Shown here: one piece after another, positions 1,244 through 18,789 of the stretch
How the letters are laid out: the number at the start of each line of letters is the position of its first letter
How positions within the stretch are numbered: position 1 is the first letter of the stretch
Source: Moorena sp. SIO3B2
GTDB lineage: Bacteria > Cyanobacteriota > Cyanobacteriia > Cyanobacteriales > Coleofasciculaceae
NCBI RefSeq assembly: GCF_010692525.1
Contig: NZ_JAAHHE010000120.1
Coordinates: forward strand, 1-18,789
Length of the DNA stretch: 18,789 nt
Direction of reading: 5' to 3'
Position numbers and translations under genes: made by a program
The notes under the pieces: generated by a model
Seen by the model: only the letters and a program-made list of their open reading frames with translations
What the model was told of the DNA's origin: nothing
Databases searched by the model: none

Positions 1244-1459
1244 ATGACTTACTTTCGTAAACGTCTCTCTCCGATCAAACCCGATGAACCGATCGACTAT
1301 AAAGATGTTGAGTTGCTGCGCAAGTTTATCACTGAACGGGGAAAAATCCTACCCCGCCGCATTACTAATCTAACGACTCAACAACAACGAAAGCTAACCA
1401 CAGCCATTAAGCGAGCAAGGTTCTTGGCTTTGCTACCCTATATTAATAAAGAAGGTTAA
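1244..1459 (+). CDS. rpsR: 30S ribosomal protein S18
   Basis: 71 aa, [38 protein letters not shown]...[13 protein letters not shown]. Canonical S18. Confidence 0.95.
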
Positions 1460-1520
1460 GGTGAACAATCACGGTCTTCCTCTGGGATATTTCCCGTGTG
1501 AAGAATCAAATATCAAATAA

Positions 1521-1551
1521 GAAGGATGAAGGATGAAGTATGAAGGATGAA
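1521..1551. repeat. Heptamer tandem repeat gaaggat (about 4 units)
   Basis: gaaggatgaaggatgaagtatgaaggatga is read directly from the sequence. Confidence 0.8.
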
Positions 1552-1681
1552 ATGGGGTGATCGATGGCTGAGGCGCGCGATGCAGTGGCCTCACGGGGAA
1601 TTCCCCCACTCGCGCTCTGCATCAAGACATGGTTAACTAAAAACTTGCGACCCAACCAGGAGTTACACTGACCACTGACAA

Positions 1682-1713
1682 CTTCAGACTTCAGACTTCA
1701 GACTTTAGACTTG
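1682..1713. repeat. Heptamer tandem repeat cttcaga (about 4.5 units)
   Basis: cttcagacttcagacttcagactttagactt is read directly from the sequence. It lies just upstream of the exoribonuclease gene. Confidence 0.8.
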
Positions 1714-1802
1714 ACCCCGTCTGCCGAGTTGGGTATCTCAACAACACAGGATAGACTGGGGGGAGGTGGATTTGGTAAACGCTACCCGGGTTATCAGAAC
1801 TG

Positions 1803-3860: not shown

Positions 3861-4022
3861 ATCTCTGTCCTTTTATAAAAATCCCCCAAAGCCGAAAACC
3901 CCGTGTCTAATGACCGGGGATGAAGGCTCACAGCGGCTTGACGCGCCTAGAAAAATATTTCAGGAAAATCCGGAATTTTAGTCTGGATGTTGTAAAATAA
4001 GGGAGTGAACAGTTTAGGTCCC

Positions 4023-4118
4023 AGACGAAACCTTAGAATAGGGTCGCCTTTATGGTTTGTCGGCTATGGAAAAAGGGTTAAAACTGTTGTTATAAGGCGA
4101 CCCTATTCTTACGGTAAC
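4023..4118. repeat. ~96-bp palindromic hairpin element (PATE/MITE-like), copy A. It has a perfect 14-bp stem agaatagggtcgcc/ggcgaccctattct around a ~47-nt loop
   Basis: The loop is near-identical to copy B at 4906-5003. It lies 13 nt upstream of the tnpB ATG. Confidence 0.8.
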
Positions 4119-4130
4119 TTTAAGAAGCTG

Positions 4131-5477
4131 ATGATCATTTTAGAGTTCAAGGCGAAAGGAAAAAAACATCAATACTCTGGGATCAACGAGGCTATCCGGA
4201 CAGTCCAGTTCATCCGTAATAGCTGCCTCAGGTATTGGATGGAAAATAAAGGGGTCAACAAATTTGACCTTAATAAGTACAGTGCAGTCCTTGCTAAAAA
4301 CTTTCCTTTTGCTAATGAATTAAACTCTACTGCTCGTCAGTCTAGTGCTGAAAGAGCATGGTCATCAATTGTTCGATTCTTTGATAACTGCAAGAAAAAA
4401 GTACCTGGAAAGAAAGGTTTTCCTAAGTTCCAGAAAAACTGCCGCTCAGTGGAGTATAAACAGTCTGGATGGAAGTTATCCCCTGACAAGAAGTCAATCA
4501 CCTTTAGTGATAAAAAGGGTATTGGGAAGCTTAAGCTTAAAGGTACATGGGACTTGTGGCGCTTGGATAAAAAGGAAATAAAGCGAGTCCGTATAGTTCG
4601 CCGGGCTGATGGTTATTATGTCCAGTTTTGTGTTTCAGTTGATATCAAAGAGGAACTAGAGCCAAGTGGGACAGCTATCGGCTTGGATGTTGGACTAAAA
4701 TATTTTTACACTGATTCCGCTGGAAAAACTGAACCAAATCCCTGCTTTTACAGAACGGTAGAAAAACGCCTTAAGTTCTACCAGCGTCGAGTTTCTCGCA
4801 AGAAGAAAGGCTCATCCAATCGAAATAAAGCAGTTAATAGACTAGGCAGACAGCACCTTAAGATAAGTAGGCAACGTGAAGAGAACGCCAAGAGACTGGG
4901 AACGAAGTTACCGTAAGAATAAAGAAGCCTTTATGGTTAGTCGGCTATGCATAAAAGGGTTAAATCTTTGTTATTAAGGCTTCTTTATTCTAAGGTTTCG
5001 TCTCCGGCGCGCTGCGTAATCTGTTCTAACGATCTGGTCGCCTAGGTCGACTTAAGAGCCAAGAACCTAGTAAAAAATCACTGCCTCGCTAAGTCTATTA
5101 ATGATGCAGGTTGGTATCAGTTTAGGAAATGGATGGAGCACTTTGGCACCAAGTTCGGAAAGGTAACAGTTGCAGTAAATCCTGCATATACCAGCCAAAA
5201 CTGTTCCAATTGTGGCGAAGAAGTTAAAAAGTCCCTATCAACTAGGACTCATACGTGCAAGTGTGGTTGTCAGTTAGATAGAGACCACAACGCCGCAATA
5301 AACATCCTTAAGAAAGCCTTGGGTACGGTGGGGCACACCGGAACCTGGATCTTAAAAGATCTAAACGCTTCAGGAGAATCGGCCTCTACTGTTCTTGGTT
5401 CCGGCCAGGTTCAGCAAGCTGGCTCGTTGAATGAAGAATCCCCGCGTATGCGCGACCGGGGAGTGTCAAAAAACTAG
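4131..5477 (+). pseudogene. tnpB: tnpB (IS200/IS605 OrfB, RuvC-like nuclease), disrupted
   Basis: N-part MIILEFKAKGKKHQYSGINEAIRTVQFIRNSCLRYWMEN...AIGLDVGLKYFYTDSAG (RuvC-I). C-part FGTKFGKVTVAVNPAYTSQNCSNCGE...CKCGCQLDRDHNAAINI (Zn finger plus RuvC-III). The reading frame is broken by the 96-nt hairpin insert (stop at 4914) and by an in-frame TAG at 5043. Confidence 0.85.
4906..5003. repeat. ~96-bp palindromic hairpin element, copy B, inserted inside tnpB. It has a perfect 14-bp stem agaataaagaagcc/ggcttctttattct
   Basis: Insert between codons KLP (4911) and ARCVI (5007). Its length is a multiple of 3 but it carries a stop. The loop is co-linear with copy A. Confidence 0.8.
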
Positions 5478-5490
5478 AAAGCTTGCTTTG

Positions 5491-7065
5491 ATGTCTCGAC
5501 ATAAGTACAAGAGATTAAAACACCAAATCATCCGGGTACCGAGCCGTTGGTACTTCTGCCTATCTTTGGCTATTACCATCCTGCTGGGATGGCTTGGTGT
5601 AGCAGTAGCACAAGATAGTAACACGAATAATTTCACTAACCTGTCTACTATCTGGTTGTTAGTTTCATCTTTTCTAGTCTTTTTTATGAATGCTGGCTTT
5701 GCCATGTTAGAAGCCGGGTTATGTAGACGGAGAAATGCGACTAATGTCTTGGCTAAAAATTTGATAGTTTTCTGTATATCAGCCTTAGCCTTTTGGCTAG
5801 TTGGCTTTGGCTTAATGTTTGGTGATGGCATCACTTACAGTTGTGTTCCAGGAGAAAATAATAGTTTAAGTTTAGTGGGTCAAAAGGGGTTGTTTTTTAA
5901 TCTTCCCTTTCCCCAATTTGGAAATCTTGGTTTTCCAGAATCAGGATTTAATTGTCTCAATCAAGATTGGTCTAATCGCTCCTTTGCGGCTCTATTTTTA
6001 TTTCAGTTAGTCTTTGCTGGAACTGCAGCCACTATTGTTTCAGGAGCTGTTGCTGAACGGGTAAAATTCTGGGCATTTCTCCTATTTAGTTTTTTCCTGG
6101 TTGGTTTTATCTATCCCGTAACCGGTCACTGGGTTTGGGGACACTATGGTTGGCTAGCCAAGGCGCTAAAATTTCATGATTTTGCGGGTTCAACTGTAGT
6201 CCATAGTGTTGGTGGTATGGCTGGCTTGGTAGGGGCTTGGCTACTAAAGCCACGACAAGGTCGTTTTGGCTACAATTTAAGAACAGATAGATATGAAGGT
6301 CTCGAAACTGAAAAGTTCTCTGCCGATAATCTGGGTTTAGCCACCTTAGGCTGCTTAATTCTTTGGCTGGGCTGGTTTGGTTTTAATGGTGGCTCAGCAA
6401 AGGATCTCGATTATGTAGCTAATACCATCACAACTACCATGATGGCAGCAGCAGCTGGTGGAATATCCAGCGTATTTTTTAGTCCAATTATCCTGGGAAA
6501 ACCCAGTCTAGCCTCAATTATCAATGGCATTTTAGGTGGGTTGGTGGGAATTACAGCCTCAGCTGCTTTTGTAGATATCAAAAGTGCATTTATAATTGGC
6601 TCTATCAGCGGTATTTTTGTCCTTTTAGGCGAATATTTTCTACAAGTTTGGAAAATTGACGACCCCGTAGGTTCGATTCCTGTTCACCTTTTCTGTGGAT
6701 TTTGGGGAACGATTGCCTTAGGAATCTTTAGTAGCAATAGTTCTCTGTTGTACTCGGAACTTGATGTATATGACGATCCATTATTACAAGTGTTGTGTCA
6801 GTTCTTAGGCTGGCTGATTATTATCATTGTAACAGCTCTATTGAGTTTATTAGGTTGGCTATTAGTTAGCCTAATTTTATATTATGCAAGCCATATCAAT
6901 GAGCGGATTAGCGGCAAACAACGCCATAGGAAACAATTACGTCAAACCCAATATTTTCAATTGGGAGAATTTATCTTAACTATTTTTGAAATTGCTCGTC
7001 GAGGAATTAGGGTATCTTTGGAAGAAGAAATCAGTGGTAGCGATGGAGTTTTTTATAATCCTTAG
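5491..7065 (+). CDS. amt: Ammonium transporter (Amt/MEP family)
   Basis: FFMNAGFAMLEAG, the signature GWFGFNGGS, VHLFCGFWGTIALGIF, about 11 TM segments and an N-terminal signal-like region. Start set at the ATG at 5491. The track ORF began at an upstream alternative codon, 5431. Confidence 0.9.
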   Translation: MSRHKYKRLKHQIIRVPSRWYFCLSLAITILLGWLGVAVAQDSNTNNFTNLSTIWLLVSSFLVFFMNAGFAMLEAGLCRRRNATNVLAKNLIVFCISALAFWLVGFGLMFGDGITYSCVPGENNSLSLVGQKGLFFNLPFPQFGNLGFPESGFNCLNQDWSNRSFAALFLFQLVFAGTAATIVSGAVAERVKFWAFLLFSFFLVGFIYPVTGHWVWGHYGWLAKALKFHDFAGSTVVHSVGGMAGLVGAWLLKPRQGRFGYNLRTDRYEGLETEKFSADNLGLATLGCLILWLGWFGFNGGSAKDLDYVANTITTTMMAAAAGGISSVFFSPIILGKPSLASIINGILGGLVGITASAAFVDIKSAFIIGSISGIFVLLGEYFLQVWKIDDPVGSIPVHLFCGFWGTIALGIFSSNSSLLYSELDVYDDPLLQVLCQFLGWLIIIIVTALLSLLGWLLVSLILYYASHINERISGKQRHRKQLRQTQYFQLGEFILTIFEIARRGIRVSLEEEISGSDGVFYNP

Positions 7066-7292: not shown

Positions 7293-8486
7293 TTACCCCA
7301 AATATTTAGCAGCTGGACAATCTAATTTTATTAGATAGTTTCTCAACCAATTAGCATAATTCTCATTATTCCTATCCCATCGACGGAAAAAACGTGGAAG
7401 AGATTTTTGTTTAAACTGGTAGTAACGCTCTGATACTTGACAAAGATTTATAGTAGCTTGCTTGAATTCACCTTGACTAGCGAGCTCTTCTATAGCATAG
7501 GAAAACTGCAATTGATCTAACATTGACTGACATAGCTTGGGAAAAGCACTATTTTGACTCTTTATCTTTCTAAGTTGCTCTATTTGTTCTTTTCTGGTAG
7601 TAAATTGGCGTCTGCATATGTCCTCAGAAGCAAGGTTTTTTAGTTGATCGTCTGCTCTTCTAGCACTAGTACACTGAAATACACCAAAGGTAATGACTAG
7701 AAACAAGGCGATCAAGCCACCCCAAAAACTAATGGGTGATGGGATTCTGCTAGCTGATGAGGTAGCCAAGGTTGTGGCTTGGTCTGGCTCTAAAGGTACT
7801 ACAGTTGATTGGTTGGGCTCGTCAGTTGTTAGATCTGGGTGTTTGGGTTCATCAGTTGTCAGCTCTGAGTGTTTAGGCTGGTCAGTTGTGAGATCTTGGT
7901 CTTGAGTAACTGGGGTGATTGGTAGGTTAGGAAAAACCATGGCGATGGCTTGATCAGTAGCATCTGTCGTCAGCTCAGATGCCAACCAATAGTCTGTACT
8001 GGTCAACTGTGCTAACTCTTGAGCTACCCAGCTGTGATTAAAAACAACCTCATAAATACGGTTAGAAACTTTTAAATTTCCCCCCTGGTTAATCACCACA
8101 CCGGAGTTGAGCAACACTTTTTGTTCCCAACTGTCATTTGCCATCATGACTCCCTGCAAAATTTTCTGATATAGCCGCAGGAATTGTTCTTCGAGCAAGA
8201 AACTACGAATATCTTGCAGAAGTTCAGCGGCTTCCTGAGTTTCCCAATTTTCAACGAAGTGAGTTTTGACTAGTTCTTCGACTTTGAGAGCTTCCTCACC
8301 AACAGGGATGGGAGATTTAGAGTCAAGGATAACTTGACAAAGCTTCTGGGTCAAAAAAGGCTGAGAGCCAGTCCATGCCAGTACCTCGTCTAAGACAACA
8401 TCAGGGTTACTCAGATGCTCAGCCAATGCGAGTTTGAATGGTTCGAGGATTTTAGCCACCTCAGGTTTATCCTGCTTAGAGGTCAT
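7293..8486 (-). CDS. Hypothetical membrane protein: N-terminal ~190-aa soluble domain, T/D/E/P-rich tandem repeats, one TM helix, and a C-terminal ~130-aa domain
   Basis: 397-aa ORF. TM segment ISFWGGLIALFLVITFGVF. Repeats DLTTDQPKHSELTTDEPKHPDLTTDEP are encoded by three ~30-nt DNA repeats at 7815-7907. No family is confidently recognised. Confidence 0.6.
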   Translation of the reverse strand: MTSKQDKPEVAKILEPFKLALAEHLSNPDVVLDEVLAWTGSQPFLTQKLCQVILDSKSPIPVGEEALKVEELVKTHFVENWETQEAAELLQDIRSFLLEEQFLRLYQKILQGVMMANDSWEQKVLLNSGVVINQGGNLKVSNRIYEVVFNHSWVAQELAQLTSTDYWLASELTTDATDQAIAMVFPNLPITPVTQDQDLTTDQPKHSELTTDEPKHPDLTTDEPNQSTVVPLEPDQATTLATSSASRIPSPISFWGGLIALFLVITFGVFQCTSARRADDQLKNLASEDICRRQFTTRKEQIEQLRKIKSQNSAFPKLCQSMLDQLQFSYAIEELASQGEFKQATINLCQVSERYYQFKQKSLPRFFRRWDRNNENYANWLRNYLIKLDCPAAKYLG

Positions 8487-8628
8487 TTCATTCCTTGTGT
8501 ATTCCAGACTATTTTTCCTTCAAACATATTTTGTGATAGTCTTGAATTTTCGATCAAGATTAACAAGGAATTTCTATGATCTACAAGCCAGGTTATGGGT
8601 AAGATATGGGGTGTAAACTACATGTCCA

Positions 8629-8973
8629 CTACATGTCCATTACATCCAACCCCTCTGATGGCATAATCTTTCCCCCAAACGACTTAACTACATCTTCAAA
8701 CAAGGGCATATCATCCTGTGGGATTTCCACTACTACTACCATTTTGGCATATTCCTCTGCTCCTTCTTCCTTGTATTCTATTTGCTCGAAGGGCAGGTCT
8801 GTTGTCCAATCGTCTGAATTGCTATCAATCATAGGGACGTTGGGCAACAGTTCTTCAACTGGGATAGCGCGAGGTTTAAAAGGCAGATCGACGCAAAATC
8901 GAGGCAGTGCCTGATGAGAAAAATTAACGAAATCCACGGGATTGCTAAACACGACTGAAACTTGGACTTTCAT
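8629..8973 (-). CDS. Hypothetical protein (114 aa, acidic)
   Basis: ORF on the same strand, 142 nt upstream of the 7293-8486 gene. The overlapping plus-strand ORF is S/T-rich low complexity and less plausible. Confidence 0.45.
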   Translation of the reverse strand: MKVQVSVVFSNPVDFVNFSHQALPRFCVDLPFKPRAIPVEELLPNVPMIDSNSDDWTTDLPFEQIEYKEEGAEEYAKMVVVVEIPQDDMPLFEDVVKSFGGKIMPSEGLDVMDM

Positions 8974-10214: not shown

Positions 10215-10336
10215 AGGTGCGACCCGTTCGCGTAGCGTTGGCAAAGCCAATAGGTGCGACCCAAGGGCGATTTATTCGCCCTTGGAGGCGCGCACCAATA
10301 GGTGCGAATTTAATTCTTAATGGGTCAAGCGCACCT
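10215..10336. repeat. Cluster of three (a)ggtgcga-type units. The third unit, 10301-10335, is the reverse complement of the copy at 14353-14397. The second unit contains the palindrome aagggcgatttattcgccctt
   Basis: The string ggtgcgaatttaattcttaatgggtcaagcgcacc reverse-complements to ggtgcgcttgacccattaagaattaaattcgcacc, which matches 14353-14397 apart from a 9-nt indel. Confidence 0.7.
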
Positions 10337-11344: not shown

Positions 11345-14245
11345 ATGGCAATCACTGTAGAGGAAATATTAACACCAGACATCAACAGACCAGCCCGTTA
11401 CTTAGGTAACGAGTTGGGAGCAGTCCATAAACCTTGGGAAGAAGCTGAGGTACGCTGGGTATTGACTTATCCAGAAATCTATGAAGTGGGGGCTTCTAAC
11501 TTAGGCCATATCATCCTCTACAATATATTGAATTATCAACCTAGGCAATTATGCGATCGCGCCTATCTACCTGCCCCAGACTTGGCAGCTAAATTACGTT
11601 CCACTCAAACCCCTCTGTTTGCTGTCGAGAATCGGCGACCTCTGAAAGATTTTGATATTATTGGCTTTAGCCTTAGCTATGAATTAGGGGCAACCAACAT
11701 CTTGGAAATGTTGGATTTGGGAGGAATTCCCCTGACCTGGAAAGACCGTGCTCAGTTTGATATATCGGAAATACCCCTAATTTTTGCAGGTGGACAAACG
11801 GCGACATCGAATCCTGAACCCTATGCTGATTTCTTAGATTTTGTTGATCTTGGCGATGGGGAAGAATTGTTGCCAGAGATTGGCTTAGTAATCGAAGAAG
11901 GCAAAGCAGCTGGCTTAAGTCGAGAAGCGTTACTCCTGGATTTGGCTCAGATACCAGGGGTGTATGTCCCCCAATTCTATGATATGACTGAGGATGGCTC
12001 AGTTAAACCCAACCGCCCTGATGTGCCGAAGCGGATTTTGCGGCGTGTGGCTACACCGATGCCTGCCTATGCTATTGGACTAGTACCCTATATCCAAACG
12101 GTTCATGACCGACTCAAGATCGAAGTGCGACGGGGCTGTACTCGGGGTTGTCGCTTCTGCCAACCTGGGATGCTGACTCGACCAGCGCGGGATGTGGAAC
12201 CAGAAAAAGTGGTGGAAGCTATTGAACAAGGGATGCGTGCTACAGGGTATAACGAGTTTTCCCTTCTATCCCTGAGTTGTTCGGATTACCTGGCTCTACC
12301 AGCGGTGGGGATGGAAATCAAAAATCGTCTTAAGGATCAGAATATTTCCTTGTCCCTACCGAGTCAGCGGGTAGACCGCTTTGATGAGAATATTGCCAAT
12401 ATCCTAGGGGGCAATCGGCAGAGTGGCTTGACCTTTGCCCCAGAAGCAGGAACTCAGCGGATGCGGGATATTGTTAATAAGGGACTGACTAATGAAGAAC
12501 TGCTCAGGGGAGTAAAGACGGCATTTGAGCAAGGCTGGGAGAAAGTCAAGCTCTATTTTATGATTGGTTTGCCCGGTGAAACGGATATGGATGTGTTGGG
12601 GATTGCGGAAACGGTGCGTTGGTTGCAGCAGGAGTGCCGTGCTAAAGGCAGAAAAACCATTAAGTTTAACATAACTGTTTCTAATTTTACCCCAAAACCT
12701 CACACCCCATTCCAGTGGCATTCCGTATCGACTTCGGAGTTTGAACGCAAGCAGGAATTACTCAAACAAGTATTTGGTCAGATCAGGGGGGTGAAGGTTA
12801 ATTACACCGATGTTCGGATTTCGGCCATGGAAGATTTCGTGGGACGGGGTGACAGACGCTTAAGTGCGGTGGTGCGCCGTGCTTGGGAATTGGGGGCAGG
12901 GATGGACTCCTGGATGGAAAGCTTGGATCGGGCATTTGCTGCTTGGGAAAATGCGATCGCTTCATCAGGTCTGACCTGGAAATATCGCCAAGTAGAAAAT
13001 GGCGAATGGAACGTGATGGCGGGTGTAGAAGAGTTGCAAGTTGGAAGGTTGTTCGCGAAGCGTGGCCAAAAGGCCAAGGTTGAAAGTTCAGAGCAACCAG
13101 CTAACCTACAACCAGCTAACCTACAACCAACTAACCGACAACCAACTAACCGACAACCAACTAACCTTCAACCAGCTAACCTTCAACCAACTAACCTTCA
13201 ACCAACTAACCTTCAACCTTCTAACCTTCAACCTTCTAACCTTCAACCTTCTAACCTTCAACCTTCTAACCTTCAACCAGCTAACCTTCAACCAGCTAAC
13301 CTTCAACCGTCAACCCTTAACGCCCTTGATGCTCCCTTGCCTTGGGATCATATTGATACGGGAATTGATAAGAATTGGCTCAAGGAAGATTTACAACGGG
13401 CGTTAGATGCAGCAACGGTACCGGATTGTTCCTTTGATGGGTGTTCTCACTGTGGTGTGTGTGGGATTGATTTTGGTCATAATGTGGTGATTGACCCGCC
13501 ACAGATTCCGCAATTTGCTGGTCACTTTAAACCCAATACTAATAAGGATCAGCGGCTGCGGGTTTGGTTTGGAAAGTTGGGGGATATGACCTTGTTGGGT
13601 CATCTGGATTTGGCAAGTCTGTTTGAGAGAGCAGTAAGACGGGCGTCACTGCCAATTCGATATAGTGGGGGGTTTCGGGCTAATGCTCGGATTATGATTG
13701 CTAATGCGTTGCCCTTGGGAGCGTCTAGCAGTGGGGAGATTGTGGAGTTTGAGTTAACTGAGAAAATGCCAGTTGAGGAGTTTAGGGAAAGGCTGGTGTC
13801 TCAGTTGCCTGAAGAGATTCCGGTGTATGGGGTTGAAGCAGTGGATTTGAAGGAACCTGCGGGAACTCAGCTGTTGGAGAGAGCTGAGTATTTGATTCGA
13901 GTTGAGGTAATATCAGAAGCGTCTTGGGAAGAGTGGCAGGGTTGGATTGAAGCAATCAAAGGTAGTAAGGAAATTTGGTGGGAGCGGTTTACGAAGTCGG
14001 GGAAGAAGCAGTGGGTGAATTTATGCGATCGCTTATTTGACTTCGAGGTGATCGAACCCCAAAAATCCAAAGATGGTGAAGAGGAGGTTGCGGAGTCTGG
14101 GGTGGTTTTGCGGTATGTGGGGAGTTGTTTGAATGATGGCACGATGTTGCGACCAGAGCACATTATTTATATGTTGGAGCAGGTGGCGCAGCGGGAGTTT
14201 CGTTTGTTGCATGTTCATCGGCAACGGTTGATTCTGCGCAATTGA
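11345..14245 (+). CDS. Radical SAM protein (B12-binding-domain type, TIGR03960-like) fused to a C-terminal DUF2344-like domain, with a repeat-expanded linker
   Basis: 966 aa. It has the CxxxCxxC cluster RGCTRGCRFCQPGM. The N-terminus PARYLGNELGAVHKPW is typical of this rSAM family. The C-terminal ~270 aa after the repeats resemble DUF2344. Confidence 0.9.
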   Translation: MAITVEEILTPDINRPARYLGNELGAVHKPWEEAEVRWVLTYPEIYEVGASNLGHIILYNILNYQPRQLCDRAYLPAPDLAAKLRSTQTPLFAVENRRPLKDFDIIGFSLSYELGATNILEMLDLGGIPLTWKDRAQFDISEIPLIFAGGQTATSNPEPYADFLDFVDLGDGEELLPEIGLVIEEGKAAGLSREALLLDLAQIPGVYVPQFYDMTEDGSVKPNRPDVPKRILRRVATPMPAYAIGLVPYIQTVHDRLKIEVRRGCTRGCRFCQPGMLTRPARDVEPEKVVEAIEQGMRATGYNEFSLLSLSCSDYLALPAVGMEIKNRLKDQNISLSLPSQRVDRFDENIANILGGNRQSGLTFAPEAGTQRMRDIVNKGLTNEELLRGVKTAFEQGWEKVKLYFMIGLPGETDMDVLGIAETVRWLQQECRAKGRKTIKFNITVSNFTPKPHTPFQWHSVSTSEFERKQELLKQVFGQIRGVKVNYTDVRISAMEDFVGRGDRRLSAVVRRAWELGAGMDSWMESLDRAFAAWENAIASSGLTWKYRQVENGEWNVMAGVEELQVGRLFAKRGQKAKVESSEQPANLQPANLQPTNRQPTNRQPTNLQPANLQPTNLQPTNLQPSNLQPSNLQPSNLQPSNLQPANLQPANLQPSTLNALDAPLPWDHIDTGIDKNWLKEDLQRALDAATVPDCSFDGCSHCGVCGIDFGHNVVIDPPQIPQFAGHFKPNTNKDQRLRVWFGKLGDMTLLGHLDLASLFERAVRRASLPIRYSGGFRANARIMIANALPLGASSSGEIVEFELTEKMPVEEFRERLVSQLPEEIPVYGVEAVDLKEPAGTQLLERAEYLIRVEVISEASWEEWQGWIEAIKGSKEIWWERFTKSGKKQWVNLCDRLFDFEVIEPQKSKDGEEEVAESGVVLRYVGSCLNDGTMLRPEHIIYMLEQVAQREFRLLHVHRQRLILRN
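13094..13319 (+). repeat. 15 in-frame tandem copies of a 15-nt unit (caaccagctaacctt and variants), encoding (P[AST]N[LR]Q)x15 inside the rSAM gene
   Basis: Read directly. Unit variants are ..gct/act/tct.. and ..cta/cga/ctt... The repeat generates spurious ORFs on other frames (13041-13406 + and 13121-13306 -). Confidence 0.95.
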
Positions 14246-14397: not shown

Positions 14398-14588
14398 GTC
14401 AGGAACGGGCAAGATGCCCATTCCACAAAACTATTCAAATCATTCCATTATTAAGCAACGCCTCAAAGAATGGTCTAAGGAAAAGAAAATCACTGCTTTG
14501 ATAAGGAAAGCCAATGGTACGGGAGTAATCAAAATTAGCCATTACCCATTACCAATAATTATCTTCTCACTGAGCTGGATTGATCTAG

Positions 14589-15458
14589 CTAACAATTATT
14601 ATTTTTAATCCTGCCATTAGGCATAATAGTGTTACAGAAAATAGCATCATTTAAGTCAGCCTTAGCTAATTTAGCCTTTTTAAGATTAGCATGGCTGAAA
14701 TTAGCCTCACTCAAATCAGCATCATGAAAGTCAACACCTTCTAAATTGGCATAACTTAGGTTGGCGGCTCTCAAGTCAGTATTATACAGTCTTGCACCAC
14801 TCAAATTAGCATGACTAAGGTTAGCGCCACACAGTTCTTCATAACCTAGGTTGACATTTTTCAAGTCTAAACCGCTTAAGTCAGCCTCGGCACAAATAAA
14901 GATTGCTCCGGCTTTTGATGGGTTAAATCCAGTCGGAAACTCAGTGTATGACGTATAGATAGCTTTGGTAAAATTTATACTACTCAGGTCAGCTTTTTTC
15001 CAGCCATCAACCCCTAGCATACGGGCATAACTGAGGTTAGCATTGCTCAGGTCAGAATCACCTACGTAAACCTCACATAAGGTAGCATAACTAAAATTGG
15101 CATCCCTGAGCTTACTAGTAGCTATATAGATTACAGATAAATCCGCATAACTCAGATCAGTACCACTAAAATCACAGTTTTCCAAGGTTGATTCAGAGGC
15201 TACTATATGACTCAAGTTAGCCTTAGTAAGGTTAGAATTTTCGATAGTGGTTTCGTATAGGTAAGCATTCCTCAAGTTAGCATGACTTAGATCTACATCA
15301 TCCCAAGTAGCTTCCTCTAAATCAGCATTACTCAAGTCCGCATTTTTTAGACAAACACCCTTGAAATTAGTACTTTTTAAGTTAGCCTTTTTCAAATTAA
15401 TACCAGAAAAATCTCTTTCACCGGCTTCGTAGCGTTTTAGGAAGTCATCACGATTCAT
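14589..15458 (-). CDS. Pentapeptide-repeat protein
   Basis: 289 aa. Continuous A(D/N)LSxANLxxA-type pentapeptide units run throughout. Confidence 0.9.
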   Translation of the reverse strand: MNRDDFLKRYEAGERDFSGINLKKANLKSTNFKGVCLKNADLSNADLEEATWDDVDLSHANLRNAYLYETTIENSNLTKANLSHIVASESTLENCDFSGTDLSYADLSVIYIATSKLRDANFSYATLCEVYVGDSDLSNANLSYARMLGVDGWKKADLSSINFTKAIYTSYTEFPTGFNPSKAGAIFICAEADLSGLDLKNVNLGYEELCGANLSHANLSGARLYNTDLRAANLSYANLEGVDFHDADLSEANFSHANLKKAKLAKADLNDAIFCNTIMPNGRIKNNNC

Positions 15459-16109
15459 AGTATGCCCCTTATTTGTTTAATATTAGATAGTAATCATCCT
15501 GATTATATCCTAAAAAAAAATATTAGTATTTTTAGAGGTTGGGTTAATGATTAATGGTTAATAGTTGTTAGTACTTAATGCTATCAAGCCTAATATAAGG
15601 TGGCCTCATACCTCATCGTTAATGTTCCGATCAGCAATCACATCTCCTATCCCAGGGGTTTGATGAAATTGCTCCCAACTCCATAAACTCAACGTAGTCA
15701 TAACGAGTTTGGGTTATTTTGGCAGAACAGAAAAAGAAAGGTTACTTTAGTTTTATAGCGAGTTCCTTTGCTGTCAGGTTACAAAATAGTTGATTGTTGA
15801 TTAGGCTTTAGGGATAAACCATGAACTATAGCAATCCTACATGAATCCTGATATTTCCTGATCCGAAGCTCCCTTGGTAAAACAATTTTGCTCACAACTG
15901 ACTTGGGATTTATATAGGCACAATACTGTATCTAAATACCTGAACATAAATGCTGTTAACTGTGTTGAAACCCTTAACGTTGTTCAACCCCTTTATGTTC
16001 TCGGTTCGCCGTTCCCTATTCCCTTATCTGATCAGTCAACTTTCATTGTGTATGACTACTTACGACCGATGAAGGCAACTTAGTAATCTAGTTCGATTAG
16101 ACCGAGACT

Positions 16110-16583
16110 ATGACTACAACTGAGCGTAAAACAGAGAAGAAAATGGAAGTGCCTAGAACAACTAGTGAAGTGATTCGCATCAAGCCCCAACAGTTTATTC
16201 ATGTGCTAGACAACAATACTGGTGTTACGCGACTGGAGGTTGGTCCTCAAACCATTACCCTTCGGGATCACGAGCGGCTGATCTTAAAACCTGAACCGAT
16301 GATTATTGTGCCGCCTCGATATTATTGTGTGGTGGCTAATCCATTACTCCGGGATGAAGACGGTCAACCCATTGCTGATCAGCATGGTCAAATTCGACTG
16401 CGCTACGGTGATCTGGAAATTCGTTTCGCGCAAGATCCGTTTCCCCTTTATCCAAACGAGAAACTGGTAGGGGATTTGACACTCCCCGTTCTTCTAGGAC
16501 GGGGAGTGTCAAAGGCAGAAAATATAGCCATTGAGTCTACAGGTCAGGCAACAGCAGAAGCAAGAGCTAAGGAATACTCTTAA
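16110..16583 (+). pseudogene. Major vault protein (MVP) homolog, N-terminal remnant (repeat domains 1-2) joined to a short cap-helix-like piece and then truncated
   Basis: IRIKPQQFIHVLDNNTGVTRLEVGP, VPPRYYCVVANP and [25 protein letters not shown] match the recalled MVP N-terminus ([25 protein letters not shown] / VPPRHYCTVANP / [25 protein letters not shown]). A full MVP is about 850 aa, so the middle is missing. Confidence 0.75.
16476..16512. repeat. Perfect palindrome ttgacactccccg-N11-cggggagtgtcaa with a 13-bp stem. It carries the same motif as the tnpB right-end hairpin at 5440-5470
   Basis: Read directly. It lies at the point where MVP N-terminal homology ends. Confidence 0.85.
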
Positions 16584-18271
16584 ACCGTCATCAATCGGGA
16601 TAAAACCGAATAAAACGGCCAAGGTGCATTTTATTGATGTCTGAGTGAGGAGCGGTCAAGTAGCAATTGGAGTCAAGCCTCCCGCTCATCTATCTAGACG
16701 TTCCTCACATCCCGGTGAGGAGTTCCTTAAAAGCTTGAGTTTTGGCATGCTTGCGGTCAAGCCATCCTAGCTTAACCGCGTCAGCTAAAGTCAAATCCAT
16801 ACCTTCTAAGAAACGCGCAGTACGACGCAACAATACTGCCTGCACTTCAACCCTAGTCATAAACCGGGAGATTCCTTGATCTGTACCACGAGCAAGGATA
16901 TTCTTCGCAGCATTGTGATCAGCCTGCAACACGACCCCATTAAATCTGATAAAACTGTCCCCAATCCTTGCTCCCAATAAGGTGCCAGAAAAGGAGTCAA
17001 TTTGCGACGTGTAGCTTGGCTGGACTTCTGTCACAACCGAACCAGTCCAATTAGCCCATTTCTGCAAGGAGTACCGCATTTCTCCTTTCATCCAGCTATT
17101 CAACTTGCGAGACATAGCCTTTGACTGGCGTTTATTTTTGATTGGTTGCGTTAAATCCTCAGCAAAAATTCTTAGAGATTCTCCTTTGAAGAGGGATTTA
17201 GAAGCAGCCCCTATAATCGCCCTCAACTCTGATTGATCTCTTCTGTAACGACTGTTTTCTGTTTTTCGACTCAGATTATTTTTCAGTATCCGAGCTGATT
17301 TAGCTGGATCTATTTTTTCTAGCTTCCTATGTATTGCCCAGAGTTTTCCTCTGTTCCGATTTTTGGCGCATATTCGATGGCCAAAAGGCCACGCTACGCG
17401 AACGGATTTTATGGTTGCTATTTTGCCCAGGTTCTTCCCGTGTGCCTGACCATCTGAATCATAAAAAGCCTCGGTGTATCCCTTGTCTACTCCTATCGCT
17501 CGACGTTCAGGAGGAATCTCAGCTGTCCCGTGATTAACCAAAAAATGAATCTCAAATCTTGCCAGTAGAGAGTTGTATATTAGTCTAATCTGTCCTTTAA
17601 TATTTCGATTAGACCTAACTATTAGTTTGTTTCTTTTTCCTCTTCTGATTCCAGCTAATTCCAATTGATAAGTATAACGAGACAATCGTTTACACGAGTA
17701 TCCTCCTTGTTGGTATACAACTTGATTCTTGACCCAATAATGTCCTCTCTGAAACTCTTTCCTTACAAGTCTGTGCAATAGTGGATTATCCAGAAAAGCT
17801 GAAGTTTTGAGTTGCTTAGAGATATCCTTTCTGATCTTCTGGTTTTCCTTTCCAGGAAACCTCTTATAGATCTTTTTTATGACTGCCTCAATGGAAGCCG
17901 CTTGTTGAGCTGTGATAGTTTTAGCTACATCACTGACAGTCCATTCCATTAACTTGGAAGGCAAGCCCAGGGACTCAGGCTTCCTGAAGTCCCTGACTTC
18001 TGGGTAGGCTTTTTTCCAGTCAAGTCCCCAATGACTTATACTACCCAGCTTGTTGTAAGACTCAGACCTGACGACGCCTAGTTTTTTCATCGTAGACAAC
18101 AGCTCAAGCTCAACCGACTTAGCTATCCCTACAACTGGGACGACCTGAGTCGATATCTTCTTTACTGCGCCTACTTTCTTTTGCATCATCAACGGTGTGT
18201 ACAGCTTTTGCTATATACTGCCATTATAGTCTAGCGCTATAAAATTGTCAATGTCCAGTTCGCACTATTAA
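16584..18271 (-). mobile_element. Insertion element carrying a TnpB-like gene, minus orientation. Ends are approximate
   Basis: MVP-like coding sequence stops at 16583 and resumes at 18272. The 3' flank contains the hairpin cctcacatcccggtgagg. Confidence 0.5.
16705..18192 (-). CDS. TnpB-like (IS200/IS605 OrfB-type) RuvC-fold nuclease/transposase-associated protein, 495 aa, without the usual CxxC..CxxC zinc finger
   Basis: RuvC-I AIGVDKGYTEAFYDSDGQ, RuvC-II IFAEDLTQPIKNKRQSKAMSRKLNSW, RuvC-III VVLQADHNAAKNILARG. There are no Cys residues between RuvC-II and RuvC-III. Confidence 0.75.
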   Translation of the reverse strand: MMMQKKVGAVKKISTQVVPVVGIAKSVELELLSTMKKLGVVRSESYNKLGSISHWGLDWKKAYPEVRDFRKPESLGLPSKLMEWTVSDVAKTITAQQAASIEAVIKKIYKRFPGKENQKIRKDISKQLKTSAFLDNPLLHRLVRKEFQRGHYWVKNQVVYQQGGYSCKRLSRYTYQLELAGIRRGKRNKLIVRSNRNIKGQIRLIYNSLLARFEIHFLVNHGTAEIPPERRAIGVDKGYTEAFYDSDGQAHGKNLGKIATIKSVRVAWPFGHRICAKNRNRGKLWAIHRKLEKIDPAKSARILKNNLSRKTENSRYRRDQSELRAIIGAASKSLFKGESLRIFAEDLTQPIKNKRQSKAMSRKLNSWMKGEMRYSLQKWANWTGSVVTEVQPSYTSQIDSFSGTLLGARIGDSFIRFNGVVLQADHNAAKNILARGTDQGISRFMTRVEVQAVLLRRTARFLEGMDLTLADAVKLGWLDRKHAKTQAFKELLTGM

Positions 18272-18516
18272 ATACAGTTTTGTCCTAATTTTTCGGGACT
18301 TGACTGCGAGGCTCACATTAAGAGTGAAGAATACCGACAGAAAGTAGAAGCAATTGGTCCTCAAACCATTCAAGCGATCGCACAAGCAGGTCCGGAAATG
18401 CAGGCAAGACTTCTAGAAGCACTTGGTATCCAGAGTGTTTTGATTACCGATGGCAAAAATCCCATCAATCTATTTGGTGCAGCTAATGGTCTGATTAGTC
18501 CGCCAACTTCTAACTA
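18272..18516 (+). pseudogene. MVP homolog, C-terminal remnant (cap-helix end and cap-ring)
   Basis: [55 protein letters not shown] matches the recalled MVP [55 protein letters not shown]. Confidence 0.7.
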
Positions 18517-18528
18517 AGTACATGTGTA

Positions 18529-18566
18529 TCTGCTGCGCGCAGCAGACACAGCGCGCAGCAGACACA
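18529..18566. repeat. 18-bp perfect palindrome tctgctgcgcgcagcaga overlapping a tandem 16-mer gcgcgcagcagacaca x2
   Basis: Read directly. It sits just downstream of the MVP stop. Confidence 0.85.
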
Positions 18567-18586
18567 GATAGACTGATAACCCAACG

Positions 18587-18612
18587 CTATCTTACCGGTC
18601 TATCTTACCGGT
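18587..18612. repeat. 13-nt tandem repeat ctatcttaccggt x2
   Basis: Read directly. It overlaps the stop codon of the minus-strand partial CDS. Confidence 0.8.
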
Positions 18613-18789
18613 CTATATGTGTCGAAGGTTGAGAGTTGAGGTGTTGCTCAACTCTGTTAATGACCCCTAGTACGAGAAACAGAGCAAATACTACAGCAAC
18701 ACCGATAGCAGTCCACTTGAAAAAAACTAACTTTGGCCGACCTTTAGCTGGATAACCACAACTGAGGCAAATTTCATCGTTGGTGCTGG
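18605..18789 (-). CDS. Partial CDS, 3' end only (the gene continues beyond the window). Its C-terminus has CxxC and a TM helix
   Basis: Open frame from the window edge to TAA at 18605-18607, translating ...STNDEICLSCGYPAKGRPKLVFFKWTAIGVAVVFALFLVLGVINRVEQHLNSQPSTHIDR*. It is absent from the ORF track because no start lies in the window. Confidence 0.4.
   Translation of the reverse strand, partial: STNDEICLSCGYPAKGRPKLVFFKWTAIGVAVVFALFLVLGVINRVEQHLNSQPSTHIDR

What the first reader, a model, noticed from the sequence alone, without database searches (positions are those of the whole stretch)
16110..18516. Remnants of a eukaryote-type major vault protein gene in a cyanobacterium, split by an IS and an internal deletion
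16110-16470 encodes roughly 120 aa with several long motif matches to the MVP N-terminal repeat domains. 18272-18516 encodes the MVP cap-ring end (AGPEMQ..LL..LG..S.LITDG..PINLF). A weaker match at 16519-16583 (AIESTGQATAEA) fits the cap-helix. MVP is the shell protein of eukaryotic vault particles, and bacterial homologs are sporadic and probably acquired horizontally. Here about 650 aa of the middle are missing and a TnpB-like IS sits between the two pieces, so the gene is dead. It still documents an MVP lineage in this genome and may point to an intact paralog elsewhere.
Basis: partly seen in the sequence, partly recalled or inferred. Interest (0 to 1): 0.75.

Follow-up and report, generated by a model that had tools for sequence, protein, structure and literature searches.

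The report
Dead major-vault-protein gene in Moorena
This is the wreck of a cyanobacterial major vault protein gene, destroyed by two deletions that sit next to mobile DNA. It is an ordinary pseudogene of a gene already described in this genus and still intact at the same locus in sister strains.

Summary
Window 16110-16475 encodes MVP residues 1-122 (Pfam Vault_2 E=1e-26; rat and human MVP E~1e-36). 16515-16572 encodes 19 cap-helix residues. 18310-18517 encodes the last 68 residues (PDB MVP E~1e-17).

The window is a Moorena contig. A sister strain (Moorena sp. SIO3I8) has an intact 879-aa gene at the same syntenic position. Against it, the window lacks codons 123-734, replaced by a 39-nt perfect palindrome. 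It also lacks codons ~754-811, replaced by a complete 1.74-kb TnpB-only insertion sequence on the opposite strand.

The palindrome arms equal the right-end terminus of a second, IS608-like element family. That family has hit the MVP gene independently in M. bouillonii and M. producens.

The same dead allele is in M. producens JHB and Moorena sp. SIO1G6. Its core differs ten-fold less between the window and JHB than the flanks do, so it was exchanged recently.

MVP homologues in Moorena (Lyngbya majuscula 3L) have been published since 2013, and they are widespread in filamentous cyanobacteria. I found no intact paralogue. Interest is low. The mobile-element details are the only mildly new part.

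The parts
15893..16039 (.). 147-bp indel in the MVP upstream region. It ends 70 bp before the start codon. Present in this lineage, in JHB and in M. producens L084; absent from Moorena sp. SIO3I8 and M. bouillonii.
   Evidence: The blastn map shows a gap between L004 5932 and 5931. The same 147 bp occur in L001/L002 and L084. No other copy was found in any fetched locus.
16110..16475 (+). MVP codons 1-122 (repeat domains R1-R2), with the original start codon.
   Evidence: Pfam Vault_2 E=1e-26. PDB MVP residues 3-112, E~1e-36. 95.9% nt identity to L004 6001-6366. 121 of 122 aa identical to the intact ortholog.
16476..16514 (.). 39-nt filler at the junction of the 1836-bp deletion. It is a near-perfect palindrome (arms 16475-16492 and 16496-16513). 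Each arm equals the right-end terminus (...CGGGGAGTGTCAA) of an IS608-like 'family B' element.
   Evidence: Inverted repeat I2. DNA hairpin -18.8 kcal/mol, z=-7.9. The same 13-mer ends a truncated tnpB at window 5458-5470. The same terminus is found in the MVP insertions of L003 and L084. Five solo palindromes of the same design occur in metagenome contigs.
16515..16572 (+). MVP codons 735-753 (a cap-helix piece, AENIAIESTGQATAEARAK), still in frame with the N-terminal piece.
   Evidence: blastn to L004 8203-8260, 96.6%. Translation.
16110..16583 (+). Chimeric 157-aa ORF annotated in public genomes: 122 aa MVP + 13 aa read from the palindrome + 19 aa cap helix + 3 aa (EYS) and a stop read from the IS end.
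   Evidence: ORF list. Exact product on record in GCA_010671945.1. Near-identical products in SIO1G6 and M. producens JHB.
16573..18309 (-). Complete copy of a TnpB-only insertion sequence ('family A', IS200/IS605-type). It replaces 172 bp of MVP (L004 8261-8432). The ends are ambiguous by 2-3 nt (16571-16572 and 18310-18312 could belong to either the IS or MVP).
   Evidence: Homology to six other Moorena copies at unrelated loci stops at exactly these ends. Junctions compared with L004.
16705..18192 (-). tnpB-like ORF (495 aa from TTG; annotated as 493 aa). On my own reading of the translation it keeps GVDKG / AEDL / ADHNAA (RuvC-like D-E-D) motifs and has no cysteine pairs in the zinc-ribbon stretch.
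   Evidence: Pfam Cas12f1-like_TNB 28.2 bits (cut-off 26.3). NCBIfam guided_TnpB E=2e-18, below its curated cut-off. Weak Cas12f matches in the PDB. 363 related clusters at E<=1e-20, nearly all of the listed ones from Moorena.
16573..16704 (-). Non-coding right end of the IS. It is conserved and structured, which fits a guide-RNA (omega RNA) scaffold or transposase-recognised hairpins.
   Evidence: Alignment of seven copies gave 41 predicted pairs, 8 of them with compensatory changes. There are zero differences between the window and JHB here.
18193..18309 (-). Left end of the IS, with a perfect sigma-70 consensus promoter (TTGACA-17-TATAAT, - strand 18251 to 18223) in front of tnpB.
   Evidence: Promoter scan 12/12. 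The block is conserved in the left-end alignment.
17379..17402 (.). 24-nt in-frame mini-insertion (GGCCAAAAGGCCACGCTACGCGAA) inside tnpB. It is absent from the orthologous IS copy in JHB.
   Evidence: Window versus JHB alignment. Related copies in the window and in L003, L004 and L073.
18310..18517 (+). MVP codons 812-879 plus the stop (end of the cap helix and the cap ring). No start codon or promoter of its own.
   Evidence: PDB MVP residues 788-850, E~1e-17. blastn to L004 8433 onward. 67 of 68 aa identical to the intact ortholog.
18517..18574 (.). GC-rich inverted repeat just after the MVP stop, probably the old terminator. It contains a 16-nt tandem duplication (18535-18566).
   Evidence: Repeats I1, I5 and D3. 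Hairpin -19.8 kcal/mol, z=-5.2. It is also palindromic in L004.

Best explanation
This is the orthologous MVP locus of a Moorena strain (the M. producens JHB-like clade). An 879-aa, eukaryote-like major vault protein gene was inactivated here by two mobile-element-associated deletions.

Shown:
- Codons 123-734 (1836 bp) are gone. A 39-nt palindrome made of two inverted copies of the right-end terminus of an IS608-like element sits at the joint.
- Codons ~754-811 (172 bp) are gone. A complete 1.74-kb TnpB-only IS lies in antisense orientation exactly flush with that deletion.
- What remains is a 157-aa chimeric ORF (R1-R2 + junk + 19 cap-helix residues + 3 IS-encoded residues) and an untranslatable C-terminal 68-codon piece.
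- It lacks seven of nine repeats, the shoulder and almost all of the cap helix.
- The same null allele is present in at least three genomes.

Inferred:
- Without those parts the product cannot build a vault shell.
- A family-B element first inserted 3' of the TTAC at codon 732-733 in the sense orientation. A deletion then removed everything from codon 123 to all but the last ~25 nt of that element. The inverted left arm arose by snap-back copying, or the stub is itself a small REP-like unit.
- The family-A IS inserted next to an AGCC motif. The 172 bp were lost between two AGCC motifs, either by transposase-mediated strand transfer or by microhomology.
- The null allele was passed between diverged Moorena backgrounds by homologous recombination not long ago.
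For: - Family assignment. The intact ortholog has Vault, Vault_2/3/4 and MVP_shoulder domains and aligns end to end with solved MVPs at E~1e-299.
- Synteny: a pentapeptide-repeat gene lies upstream and a Na/H exchanger downstream in the window, L002, L004, L084 and L085.
- Base-level map and junction sequences.
- The IS is complete. Homology to six other copies ends at the insert ends, and the 3' non-coding part is structured.
- The palindrome arm is the family-B right-end terminus.
- Family B inserts 3' of TTAC, shown by a filled site (L084) and an empty site (L004). The window's right arm abuts the sequence that follows a TTAC in the intact gene, with 1 mismatch.
- AGCC precedes both possible ends of the 172-bp deletion. 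Five of seven IS-A copies have GCC at the left-end boundary.
- The same allele is in JHB and SIO1G6.
- Retained codons carry 10 synonymous against 1 non-synonymous window-specific changes. Selection therefore acted until recently.
- Window versus JHB: 5 substitutions in 1726 nt across 16500-18249, against 1-8% per 250 bp in the flanks.
Against: - Nothing contradicts the pseudogene reading.
- The order of events is inferred, not observed.
- The expected flank after TTAC differs from the window by one base (AAGCAG versus AGGCAG).
- The left arm of the palindrome does not sit next to a TTAC, so a simple second insertion does not explain it.
- The target motif of family A rests on seven copies only, and one of them has GTC instead of GCC.
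- The 1836-bp deletion plus 39-nt filler is in frame, and the 157-aa ORF keeps its start. Expression of a truncated R1-R2 protein is therefore not excluded.
Confidence: 0.92

Rival explanations
1. The 157-aa ORF is a retained, functional mini-protein (MVP repeats R1-R2 with a short tail), not debris.
For: The start codon and upstream region are kept. The deletion plus filler is in frame. Window-specific changes are 10 synonymous to 1 non-synonymous. The same ORF is present in three genomes, including the complete JHB genome.
Against: The untranslatable C-terminal piece shows the same synonymous bias (5 synonymous, 1 non-synonymous against JHB). The bias therefore reflects past selection on the whole gene. 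Differences between carriers lie only in flanks that pre-date the shared tract, so there has been no time to test for constraint. An in-frame outcome has a 1-in-3 chance. The tail is read from a palindrome and an IS end. Other short MVP N-terminal products in the database are contig-end fragments or frameshifted genes.
Confidence: 0.05
2. The 39-nt palindrome is an independent REP-like mobile unit derived from the IS608-like right end. It inserted into MVP, and the 1836-bp deletion happened flush with it afterwards, or by recombination between two such units.
For: Five stand-alone palindromes of the same design (TTGACACTCCCCG-loop-CGGGGAGTGTCAA) lie in unrelated, mostly intergenic cyanobacterial contexts with no tnpB nearby. 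One of them (L080) follows a TTAC. In M. bouillonii, a deletion flush with a right-end terminus also occurred in this gene.
Against: Only one of ten flank orientations shows TTAC. No filled/empty pair was found for a solo palindrome. The element has no distinct left end, which the single-strand transposition mechanism of this family needs (own knowledge of IS608).
Confidence: 0.3
3. The arrangement is an assembly artefact (a chimeric contig or a collapsed repeat).
For: The window comes from a metagenome-assembled genome. IS copies are numerous in Moorena.
Against: The identical architecture appears in three independent assemblies, including the finished 9.65-Mb JHB chromosome. The junctions are base-identical.
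Confidence: 0.01

Closest known systems
Cyanobacterial MVP homologue of Moorena (Moorea) producens 3L / Lyngbya majuscula 3L, UniProt F4Y3B4 / EGJ28590.1, 879 aa, annotated 'colicin uptake protein'
   Same: Same gene family and same genus. The retained pieces are 96-99% identical in protein to the Moorena full-length proteins. The gene is described in PMC3762200 and bioRxiv 10.1101/872010.
   Different: The window copy lacks ~670 of 879 codons and is interrupted by an IS. It is a null allele of that gene.
Eukaryotic major vault protein (rat and human MVP; PDB 4V60, 4HL8, 7PKZ)
   Same: The N-terminal piece aligns to residues 3-112 and the C-terminal piece to residues 788-850. The intact Moorena ortholog aligns over residues 3-849 at E~1e-297.
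   Different: Bacterial host. No evidence here of vault particles, vault RNA, TEP1 or vPARP partners. This copy lacks repeats R3-R9, the shoulder and most of the cap helix.
IS200/IS605-family TnpB-only elements (IS1341 group; ISDra2 TnpB as the studied RNA-guided nuclease)
   Same: Single tnpB ORF. Multi-copy, with conserved non-inverted ends. Structured 3' non-coding end of the kind that encodes the guide RNA.
   Different: Very divergent. It is below NCBIfam's curated score and only weakly similar to solved relatives. The zinc-ribbon cysteines appear to be replaced (my reading of the alignment). No tnpA is present. The target motif is uncertain (AGCC or GCC).
IS608 of Helicobacter pylori (IS200/IS605 family; inserts 3' of TTAC, right end ends in TCAA; own knowledge)
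   Same: The 'family B' element whose terminus forms the palindrome inserts 3' of TTAC without duplication and ends in ...GTGTCAA.
   Different: Only a stub is left in the window, and it is duplicated in inverted form. The family-B tnpB in the window (5088-5474) is truncated.
REP / REPIN elements mobilised by RAYT transposases (Bertels and Rainey 2011, PMC3116915)
   Same: A short (~37-39 nt) palindrome related to an IS200/IS605-type end, found as solo copies in intergenic DNA.
   Different: No RAYT was identified. Copy number is unknown. No doublet organisation. Mobility is not shown.

Membership tests
Major vault protein (Pfam Vault / Vault_2-4 / MVP_shoulder) | N-terminal vault repeat domains recognisable by family models | tested here: met
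   Vault_2 E=1e-26, above the cut-off. PDB MVP residues 3-112, E~1e-36. Only R1-R2 are present.
Major vault protein (Pfam Vault / Vault_2-4 / MVP_shoulder) | Full repeat array R1-R9 and shoulder domain (PF11978) | tested here: not met
   Codons 123-734 are absent from the window. The intact ortholog L004 has Vault x4, Vault_3, Vault_4 and MVP_shoulder.
Major vault protein (Pfam Vault / Vault_2-4 / MVP_shoulder) | Long cap-helix coiled coil followed by the cap ring, in one reading frame with the body | tested here: not met
   Only 19 cap-helix codons are joined to the N-terminal piece. The last 68 codons match MVP 788-850 but are separated by the IS and have no start.
Major vault protein (Pfam Vault / Vault_2-4 / MVP_shoulder) | Assembly into 78-mer vault shells | not testable with these tools
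   Needs expression and electron microscopy. By inference it is impossible for this truncated product.
IS200/IS605 family, TnpB-only (IS1341-type) element | TnpB-type protein with a RuvC-like nuclease core | tested here: inconclusive
   Pfam Cas12f1-like_TNB is just above its cut-off (28.2 against 26.3). NCBIfam guided_TnpB E=2e-18 but 66.7 bits against a cut-off of 100. D/E/D motifs were seen by eye only (and the translation).
IS200/IS605 family, TnpB-only (IS1341-type) element | Multi-copy, with conserved ends that are not terminal inverted repeats | tested here: met
   Six other copies at unrelated loci share both ends. The left and right ends are unrelated in sequence.
IS200/IS605 family, TnpB-only (IS1341-type) element | Insertion 3' of a short target motif without target duplication | tested here: inconclusive
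   The left-end boundary carries GCC in 5 of 7 copies. No undisturbed filled/empty pair is available for this family, and in the window the site is altered by the 172-bp deletion.
IS200/IS605 family, TnpB-only (IS1341-type) element | Structured RNA encoded at the right end (omega RNA) | tested here: inconclusive
   41 predicted pairs, 8 with compensatory changes, in seven copies. No Rfam family matched. No expression data.
IS608-like element (source of the palindrome arms) | TTAC target on the left, right end ending in TCAA, no duplication | tested here: met
   Filled site in L084 against empty site in L004: CGCTTTAC|...GAGTGTCAA|AAGTATCTCC. In the window, the right arm abuts the sequence after a TTAC with one mismatch.
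REP/REPIN-like mobile palindrome | Many dispersed copies and evidence of movement (filled versus empty sites), with an associated RAYT | not tested
   Only five solo copies were found in a metagenome scan.

The most novel reading that the evidence does not exclude
The dead MVP allele may be more than passive debris. It could be spreading through Moorena as a ~1.95-kb unit driven by its resident TnpB element.

The tract shared by the window lineage and JHB hugs the IS and the deletion joints (0.3% divergence against ~3% in the flanks). Intact alleles carry the motif TCAGCC immediately followed by a 20-nt match to the sequence flanking the IS right end. That is what a TnpB guide RNA would target.

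On this reading, cutting of intact alleles and repair from the IS-bearing copy (homing, as shown experimentally for TnpB; own knowledge, Meers et al. 2023) would convert MVP+ chromosomes to the null allele. The deletions flush with right ends (seen three times in this gene) would be by-products of the same single-strand transposition chemistry.
Probability: 0.15. Interest if true: 0.5.

Novelty: already known. Interest (0 to 1): 0.18.

Why it matters
It matters little in itself. A eukaryote-like MVP gene in Moorena and other filamentous cyanobacteria has been in the literature since 2013, and a broken copy adds no new lineage.

What the analysis adds is context:
- The gene is intact and highly conserved (65-84% identity to the Moorena protein) in about 58 of 70 species-level genomes. 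These include Thiomargarita-, Beggiatoa-, Anaerolineae- and Chloroflexaceae-labelled assemblies, so 'sporadic' is the wrong word.
- The gene has nonetheless been knocked out repeatedly in IS-rich marine genera, so it is dispensable there.
- The locus offers natural MVP+ and MVP- strain pairs within one genus (3L, SIOASIH, SIO3I8 against JHB, SIO1G6). These could help anyone asking what bacterial vault proteins do.
- It also gives a compact example of how IS200/IS605-type elements erode a gene: deletions flush with right ends, a palindromic stub, and recent exchange of the null allele.

Tried and rejected
- Exact look-ups of the TnpB product from the TTG start and from the third Met both found nothing. 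The recorded protein differs slightly, so I used homologues instead.
- Rfam found nothing at gathering threshold. Only chance microRNA-like hits to the hairpins came up at E<=1.
- A literature search for the palindrome sequence returned only unrelated PCR primers.
- I considered that the short N-terminal MVP proteins in the database (120-210 aa) might be a real 'mini-MVP' family. I rejected this: most sit on short contigs or come from frameshifted or deleted genes.
- I considered a second, antisense family-B insertion as the origin of the left palindrome arm. I rejected this because the flank there reads GTGAC, not TTAC.
- I considered independent IS insertions in the window lineage and in JHB. 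I rejected this because the non-IS joint sequences (palindrome, cap-helix piece, last 93 nt of the N-terminal piece) are also identical.
- I looked for a conserved motif upstream of the family-A left end. Nothing was conserved beyond (A/C)GCC in seven copies.
- The Pfam hits of the C-terminal piece (PG_binding_3, PrpR_N, DUF4332; E 0.007-0.06, below cut-offs) are noise. Pfam has no model for the cap ring.
Full report
**Origin of the window.** The 157-aa product of ORF 16110-16583 is on record in contig JAAHIE010000031.1 of assembly GCA_010671945.1, an unclassified Moorena. A product that differs by one residue is in Moorena sp. SIO1G6. That contig is 99.9% identical to the window over 14401-18789. 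The neighbours are ordinary cyanobacterial genes: an ammonium transporter, a radical-SAM protein, a 289-aa pentapeptide-repeat protein upstream on the minus strand, and a Na/H exchanger followed by the ribosomal protein cluster downstream.

The N-terminal ORF hits Pfam Vault_2 at E=1e-26. It aligns to residues 3-112 of solved rat and human MVP at E=1e-33 to 7e-37. The frame ending at 18517 aligns to MVP residues 788-850 at E=1e-17 to 6e-16. Pfam has no significant hit for that piece, and its sub-threshold hits are noise.

**An intact ortholog exists at the same locus.** A scan of one genome per species found 70 loci encoding relatives of the N-terminal piece. In Moorena sp. SIO3I8 (L004), an 879-aa ORF lies between the same pentapeptide-repeat gene and the same Na/H exchanger. 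It carries Vault, Vault_2, Vault_3, Vault_4 and MVP_shoulder domains. It aligns over residues 3-849 of solved MVPs at E~1e-297 to 1e-299.

The blastn map of the window on L004 is as follows:

| Window | L004 | MVP codons |
|---|---|---|
| 16040-16475 | 5931-6366 | 1-122 |
| 16515-16572 | 8203-8260 | 735-753 |
| 18310-18789 | 8433-8912 | 812-879 plus downstream |

Two segments of the gene are therefore missing. L004 6367-8202 (1836 bp, 612 codons) is replaced by 39 nt. L004 8261-8432 (172 bp) is replaced by 1737 bp. The first replacement is in frame. This is why the annotated ORF reads MVP 1-122, then 13 residues from the filler, then AENIAIESTGQATAEARAK, then EYS and a stop from the insert.

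**The 1737-bp insert is a complete insertion sequence.**
- Its single ORF (16705-18192, minus strand) matches Pfam Cas12f1-like_TNB just above cut-off and NCBIfam guided_TnpB at E=2e-18, below the curated score. It is only weakly similar to solved Cas12f/TnpB chains.
- The family is hugely expanded in Moorena: 363 clusters at E<=1e-20, with the closest other copy 84% identical.
- Six other copies at unrelated loci align to the window insert from 18312-18317 down to 16570-16574, which is exactly the insert.
- The left end starts GCCTCGCAGTCAAGT and the right end finishes AAGAGTATTCC.
- The left end holds a perfect TTGACA-17-TATAAT promoter in front of tnpB.
- The 130-nt non-coding right end is conserved. 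It folds into a consensus structure with 8 compensatory pairs among seven copies. This fits a guide-RNA scaffold, but no Rfam family matches.
- No transposase gene is present, so the element depends on a TnpA supplied elsewhere (inference from knowledge of the IS200/IS605 family).

**The 172-bp deletion is flush with the IS.** Read on the IS strand, the intact gene has ...TGAGCC|ATACG at L004 8433 and ...TCAGCC|TTAGCTCTTGC at L004 8261. The window has TGAGCC|IS|TTAGCTCTTGC. Five of seven copies carry GCC at the left-end boundary, preceded by A or C.

Either of two events gives the observed joints:
- the element inserted after one AGCC, and the 172 bp up to the other AGCC were lost; or
- two same-orientation insertions recombined.

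I cannot tell these apart.

**The 39-nt filler is a near-perfect palindrome.** Its arms are 16475-16492 and 16496-16513. As single-stranded DNA it folds at -18.8 kcal/mol, z=-7.9. Its arm, TTTGACACTCCCC, occurs once more in the window at 5458-5470 on the minus strand. There, on the plus strand, the sequence ...CCGGGGAGTGTCAAA closes a truncated tnpB of a different family (129 C-terminal residues, 5088-5474). I call this family B.

The same terminus appears inside the MVP gene of two other Moorena genomes:
- In an M. producens assembly (L084), a 523-bp tnpB-less derivative sits between L004 7816 and 7817 with no loss of target. The empty site reads CGCTTTAC|AAGTATCTCC on the element's strand, and the filled site reads TTTAC|CAAAAGATTT...GAGTGTCAA|AAGTATCTCC. 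Family B therefore inserts 3' of TTAC and ends in TCAA, as IS608 does (own knowledge).
- In M. bouillonii PNG5-198 (L003), the same left junction is present, but the right-end terminus now abuts L004 7462. That is a 354-bp deletion flush with the right end.

In the window, the right arm of the palindrome is followed by AGGCAGAAAAT. The intact gene has TTAC|AAGCAGAAAAT at 8196-8199. A sense-oriented family-B element inserted at that TTAC would give this junction with one base change.

My reading is that such an element inserted at codon 732-733. A later deletion then took out everything from codon 123 to all but the last ~25 nt of the element. The inverted left arm is not explained by a second insertion, because its flank reads GTGAC rather than TTAC. 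It may be snap-back copying during repair.

Alternatively, the palindrome may be a small unit in its own right. A metagenome scan found five solo palindromes of the form TTGACACTCCCCG-loop-CGGGGAGTGTCAA. Their flanks are unrelated, they lie mostly just outside genes on cyanobacterium-like contigs, and they have no family-B tnpB nearby.

**Age and spread of the null allele.** Moorena producens JHB (complete genome, L085) has the same architecture: the same palindrome, the same joints and the same IS.

Divergence between the window lineage and JHB is uneven:

| Region | Divergence |
|---|---|
| Flanks, from 14.5 kb to 22.7 kb of the window's contig | 1-8% per 250 bp |
| 16500-18249 | 5 substitutions in 1726 nt, plus one 24-nt indel |
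| 16383-16850 | no differences |

The tract of near-identity covers the last 93 nt of the N-terminal piece, the palindrome, the cap-helix piece, the whole IS and at most 24 nt of the C-terminal piece. Other IS copies are at most 84% identical in protein to this one. Conversion from them therefore cannot explain the near-identity.

The core of the null allele thus coalesces much more recently than its flanks. It was moved between backgrounds by recombination.

The substitution pattern fits this:
- In the flanking retained codons, differences between the window and JHB are mostly synonymous (15 against 4).
- Window-specific changes relative to two other Moorena alleles are 10 synonymous against 1 non-synonymous.

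The pieces therefore still carry the signature of a gene that was under purifying selection until recently. They say nothing about present function.

**How common the gene is.** tblastn of the Moorena protein against the 70 loci shows an uninterrupted match across nearly the whole protein in about 58 of them, at 65-84% identity. These include assemblies labelled Thiomargarita, Parabeggiatoa, Anaerolineae and Chloroflexaceae. The missing middle part alone retrieves 3403 protein clusters at E<=1e-30. Most are named 'colicin uptake protein' by NCBI and 'major vault protein' by JGI.

Several other genomes carry broken copies with frameshifts or large internal deletions: Dapis, Okeania, Floridaenema, Phormidium, a Hormoscilla MAG and others.

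Within Moorena, the picture is as follows:
- Intact 879-aa proteins exist in 3L, SIOASIH, SIO3I8 and SIO4A1.
- Broken alleles exist in JHB / SIO1G6 / this window, in M. bouillonii, and in the M. producens assembly L084. L084 has two insertions but is a 7x long-read assembly, so caution is needed.
- SIO1F2 has two products, covering residues 1-264 and 275-879, which may reflect a further disruption.
- No JHB or SIO1G6 protein containing the middle part turned up. This argues against an intact paralogue, but it is not a full genome search.

**Comparison with the literature.** Daly et al. 2013 list the Lyngbya majuscula (now Moorena producens 3L) protein F4Y3B4 (879 aa, 54% identity to the reference) together with Oscillatoria and Microcoleus homologues. 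They discuss eukaryote-to-cyanobacterium transfer (PMC3762200). Sokolskyi 2019 uses the same Moorea protein and argues for the opposite direction (bioRxiv 10.1101/872010). The presence of an MVP lineage in this genus is therefore known. The truncated JHB product is already labelled as an MVP repeat protein in UniProt.

**Verdict.** This is a real, well-delimited pseudogene of a known gene, with a clear mechanism of inactivation. The finding is ordinary.

Three modestly new points came out of the analysis, none of them established:
- three deletions in this one gene lie flush with IS200/IS605-type right ends;
- a palindromic stub recurs as solo copies elsewhere;
- the null allele was exchanged recently, as a tract that hugs the IS.

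Noticed in passing
window 5088-5474 (+), terminus at 5458-5473: Truncated C-terminal 129 codons of a second tnpB family (IS608-like 'family B'), with its right end ...GACCGGGGAGTGTCAAA. It lies just upstream of the ammonium transporter gene, and its 5' part is missing.
   Followed up: partly
window 17379-17402; also 13051-13067 (-), 10226-10242 (-); L004 3216-3319; L003 7706-7731; L073 2284-2300: A ~24-nt hairpin-containing mini-repeat (GGCCAAAAGGCCACGCTACGCGAA) inserted in frame inside coding sequence. In the window's tnpB it splits a CGATCG site and adds 8 residues. It is absent from the orthologous IS in JHB, yet present at the same place in a paralogous IS copy. Three copies at 39-nt spacing lie in L004 3216-3319, inside the 960-aa ORF (1393-4275) that corresponds by position to the window's radical-SAM gene. 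It resembles the very small mobile repeats described for Nostocales (Elhai et al. 2008, own knowledge).
   Followed up: partly
L076 3222-3258, L077 804-840, L078 2407-2443, L079 112-148, L080 6013-6048: Solo 36-37-nt palindromes TTGACACTCCCCG-loop-CGGGGAGTGTCAA in metagenome contigs with cyanobacterium-like genes. They lie mostly within ~30 nt of ORF ends, have different loops, and have no tnpB nearby.
   Followed up: partly
L084 6817-7339 and 7778-8048; L003 7669-8121: The MVP genes of another M. producens assembly and of M. bouillonii carry a family-B derivative at the same TTAC (L004 7816/7817). M. bouillonii has in addition a 354-bp deletion flush with the right end. L084 has a second, unrelated 271-bp insertion at L004 8253/8254, only ~7 bp from the window's IS junction.
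   Followed up: partly
window 16383-18333 versus L085 (M. producens JHB): There is a trough of divergence (0.3% against ~3% background) that coincides with the deletion joints and the IS. The null allele core was exchanged recently between diverged strains. Intact alleles carry TCAGCC plus a 20-nt match to the flank of the IS right end.
   Followed up: partly
L053, L069, L070, L071, L072, L041, L059, L066: MVP genes with frameshifts or large internal deletions in other genera (Dapis, Floridaenema, Okeania, Phormidium, Hormoscilla and others). Most junctions appear clean in the tblastn coordinates, without filler. I did not inspect the sequences at these junctions.
   Followed up: no
L047, L050, L058, L063, L044, L048, L064, L046: Full-length MVP homologues (65-73% identity to the Moorena protein) in assemblies labelled Thiomargarita, Thiotrichaceae, Parabeggiatoa, Anaerolineae, Chloroflexaceae and Oscillochloris. 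These are large or filamentous bacteria outside the cyanobacteria.
   Followed up: no
window 15893-16039: A 147-bp indel in the MVP promoter region. It is shared with JHB-type and L084 alleles and absent from SIO3I8 and M. bouillonii. No other copy was found in the fetched loci, so its nature (insertion or deletion) is open.
   Followed up: partly
window 18535-18566 and 18587-18612: Two short tandem duplications (16 nt x2 and 13 nt x2) in and after the GC-rich hairpin downstream of the MVP stop. This stretch is also the most diverged segment between the window and JHB (8.4%).
   Followed up: no
L074 about 3094-3120: In one family-A IS copy of M. producens PAL-8-15-08-1, a second partial right-end motif (GGTTTAAGAGT) recurs ~15 nt after the right end. 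This suggests a tandem or abortive end.
   Followed up: no
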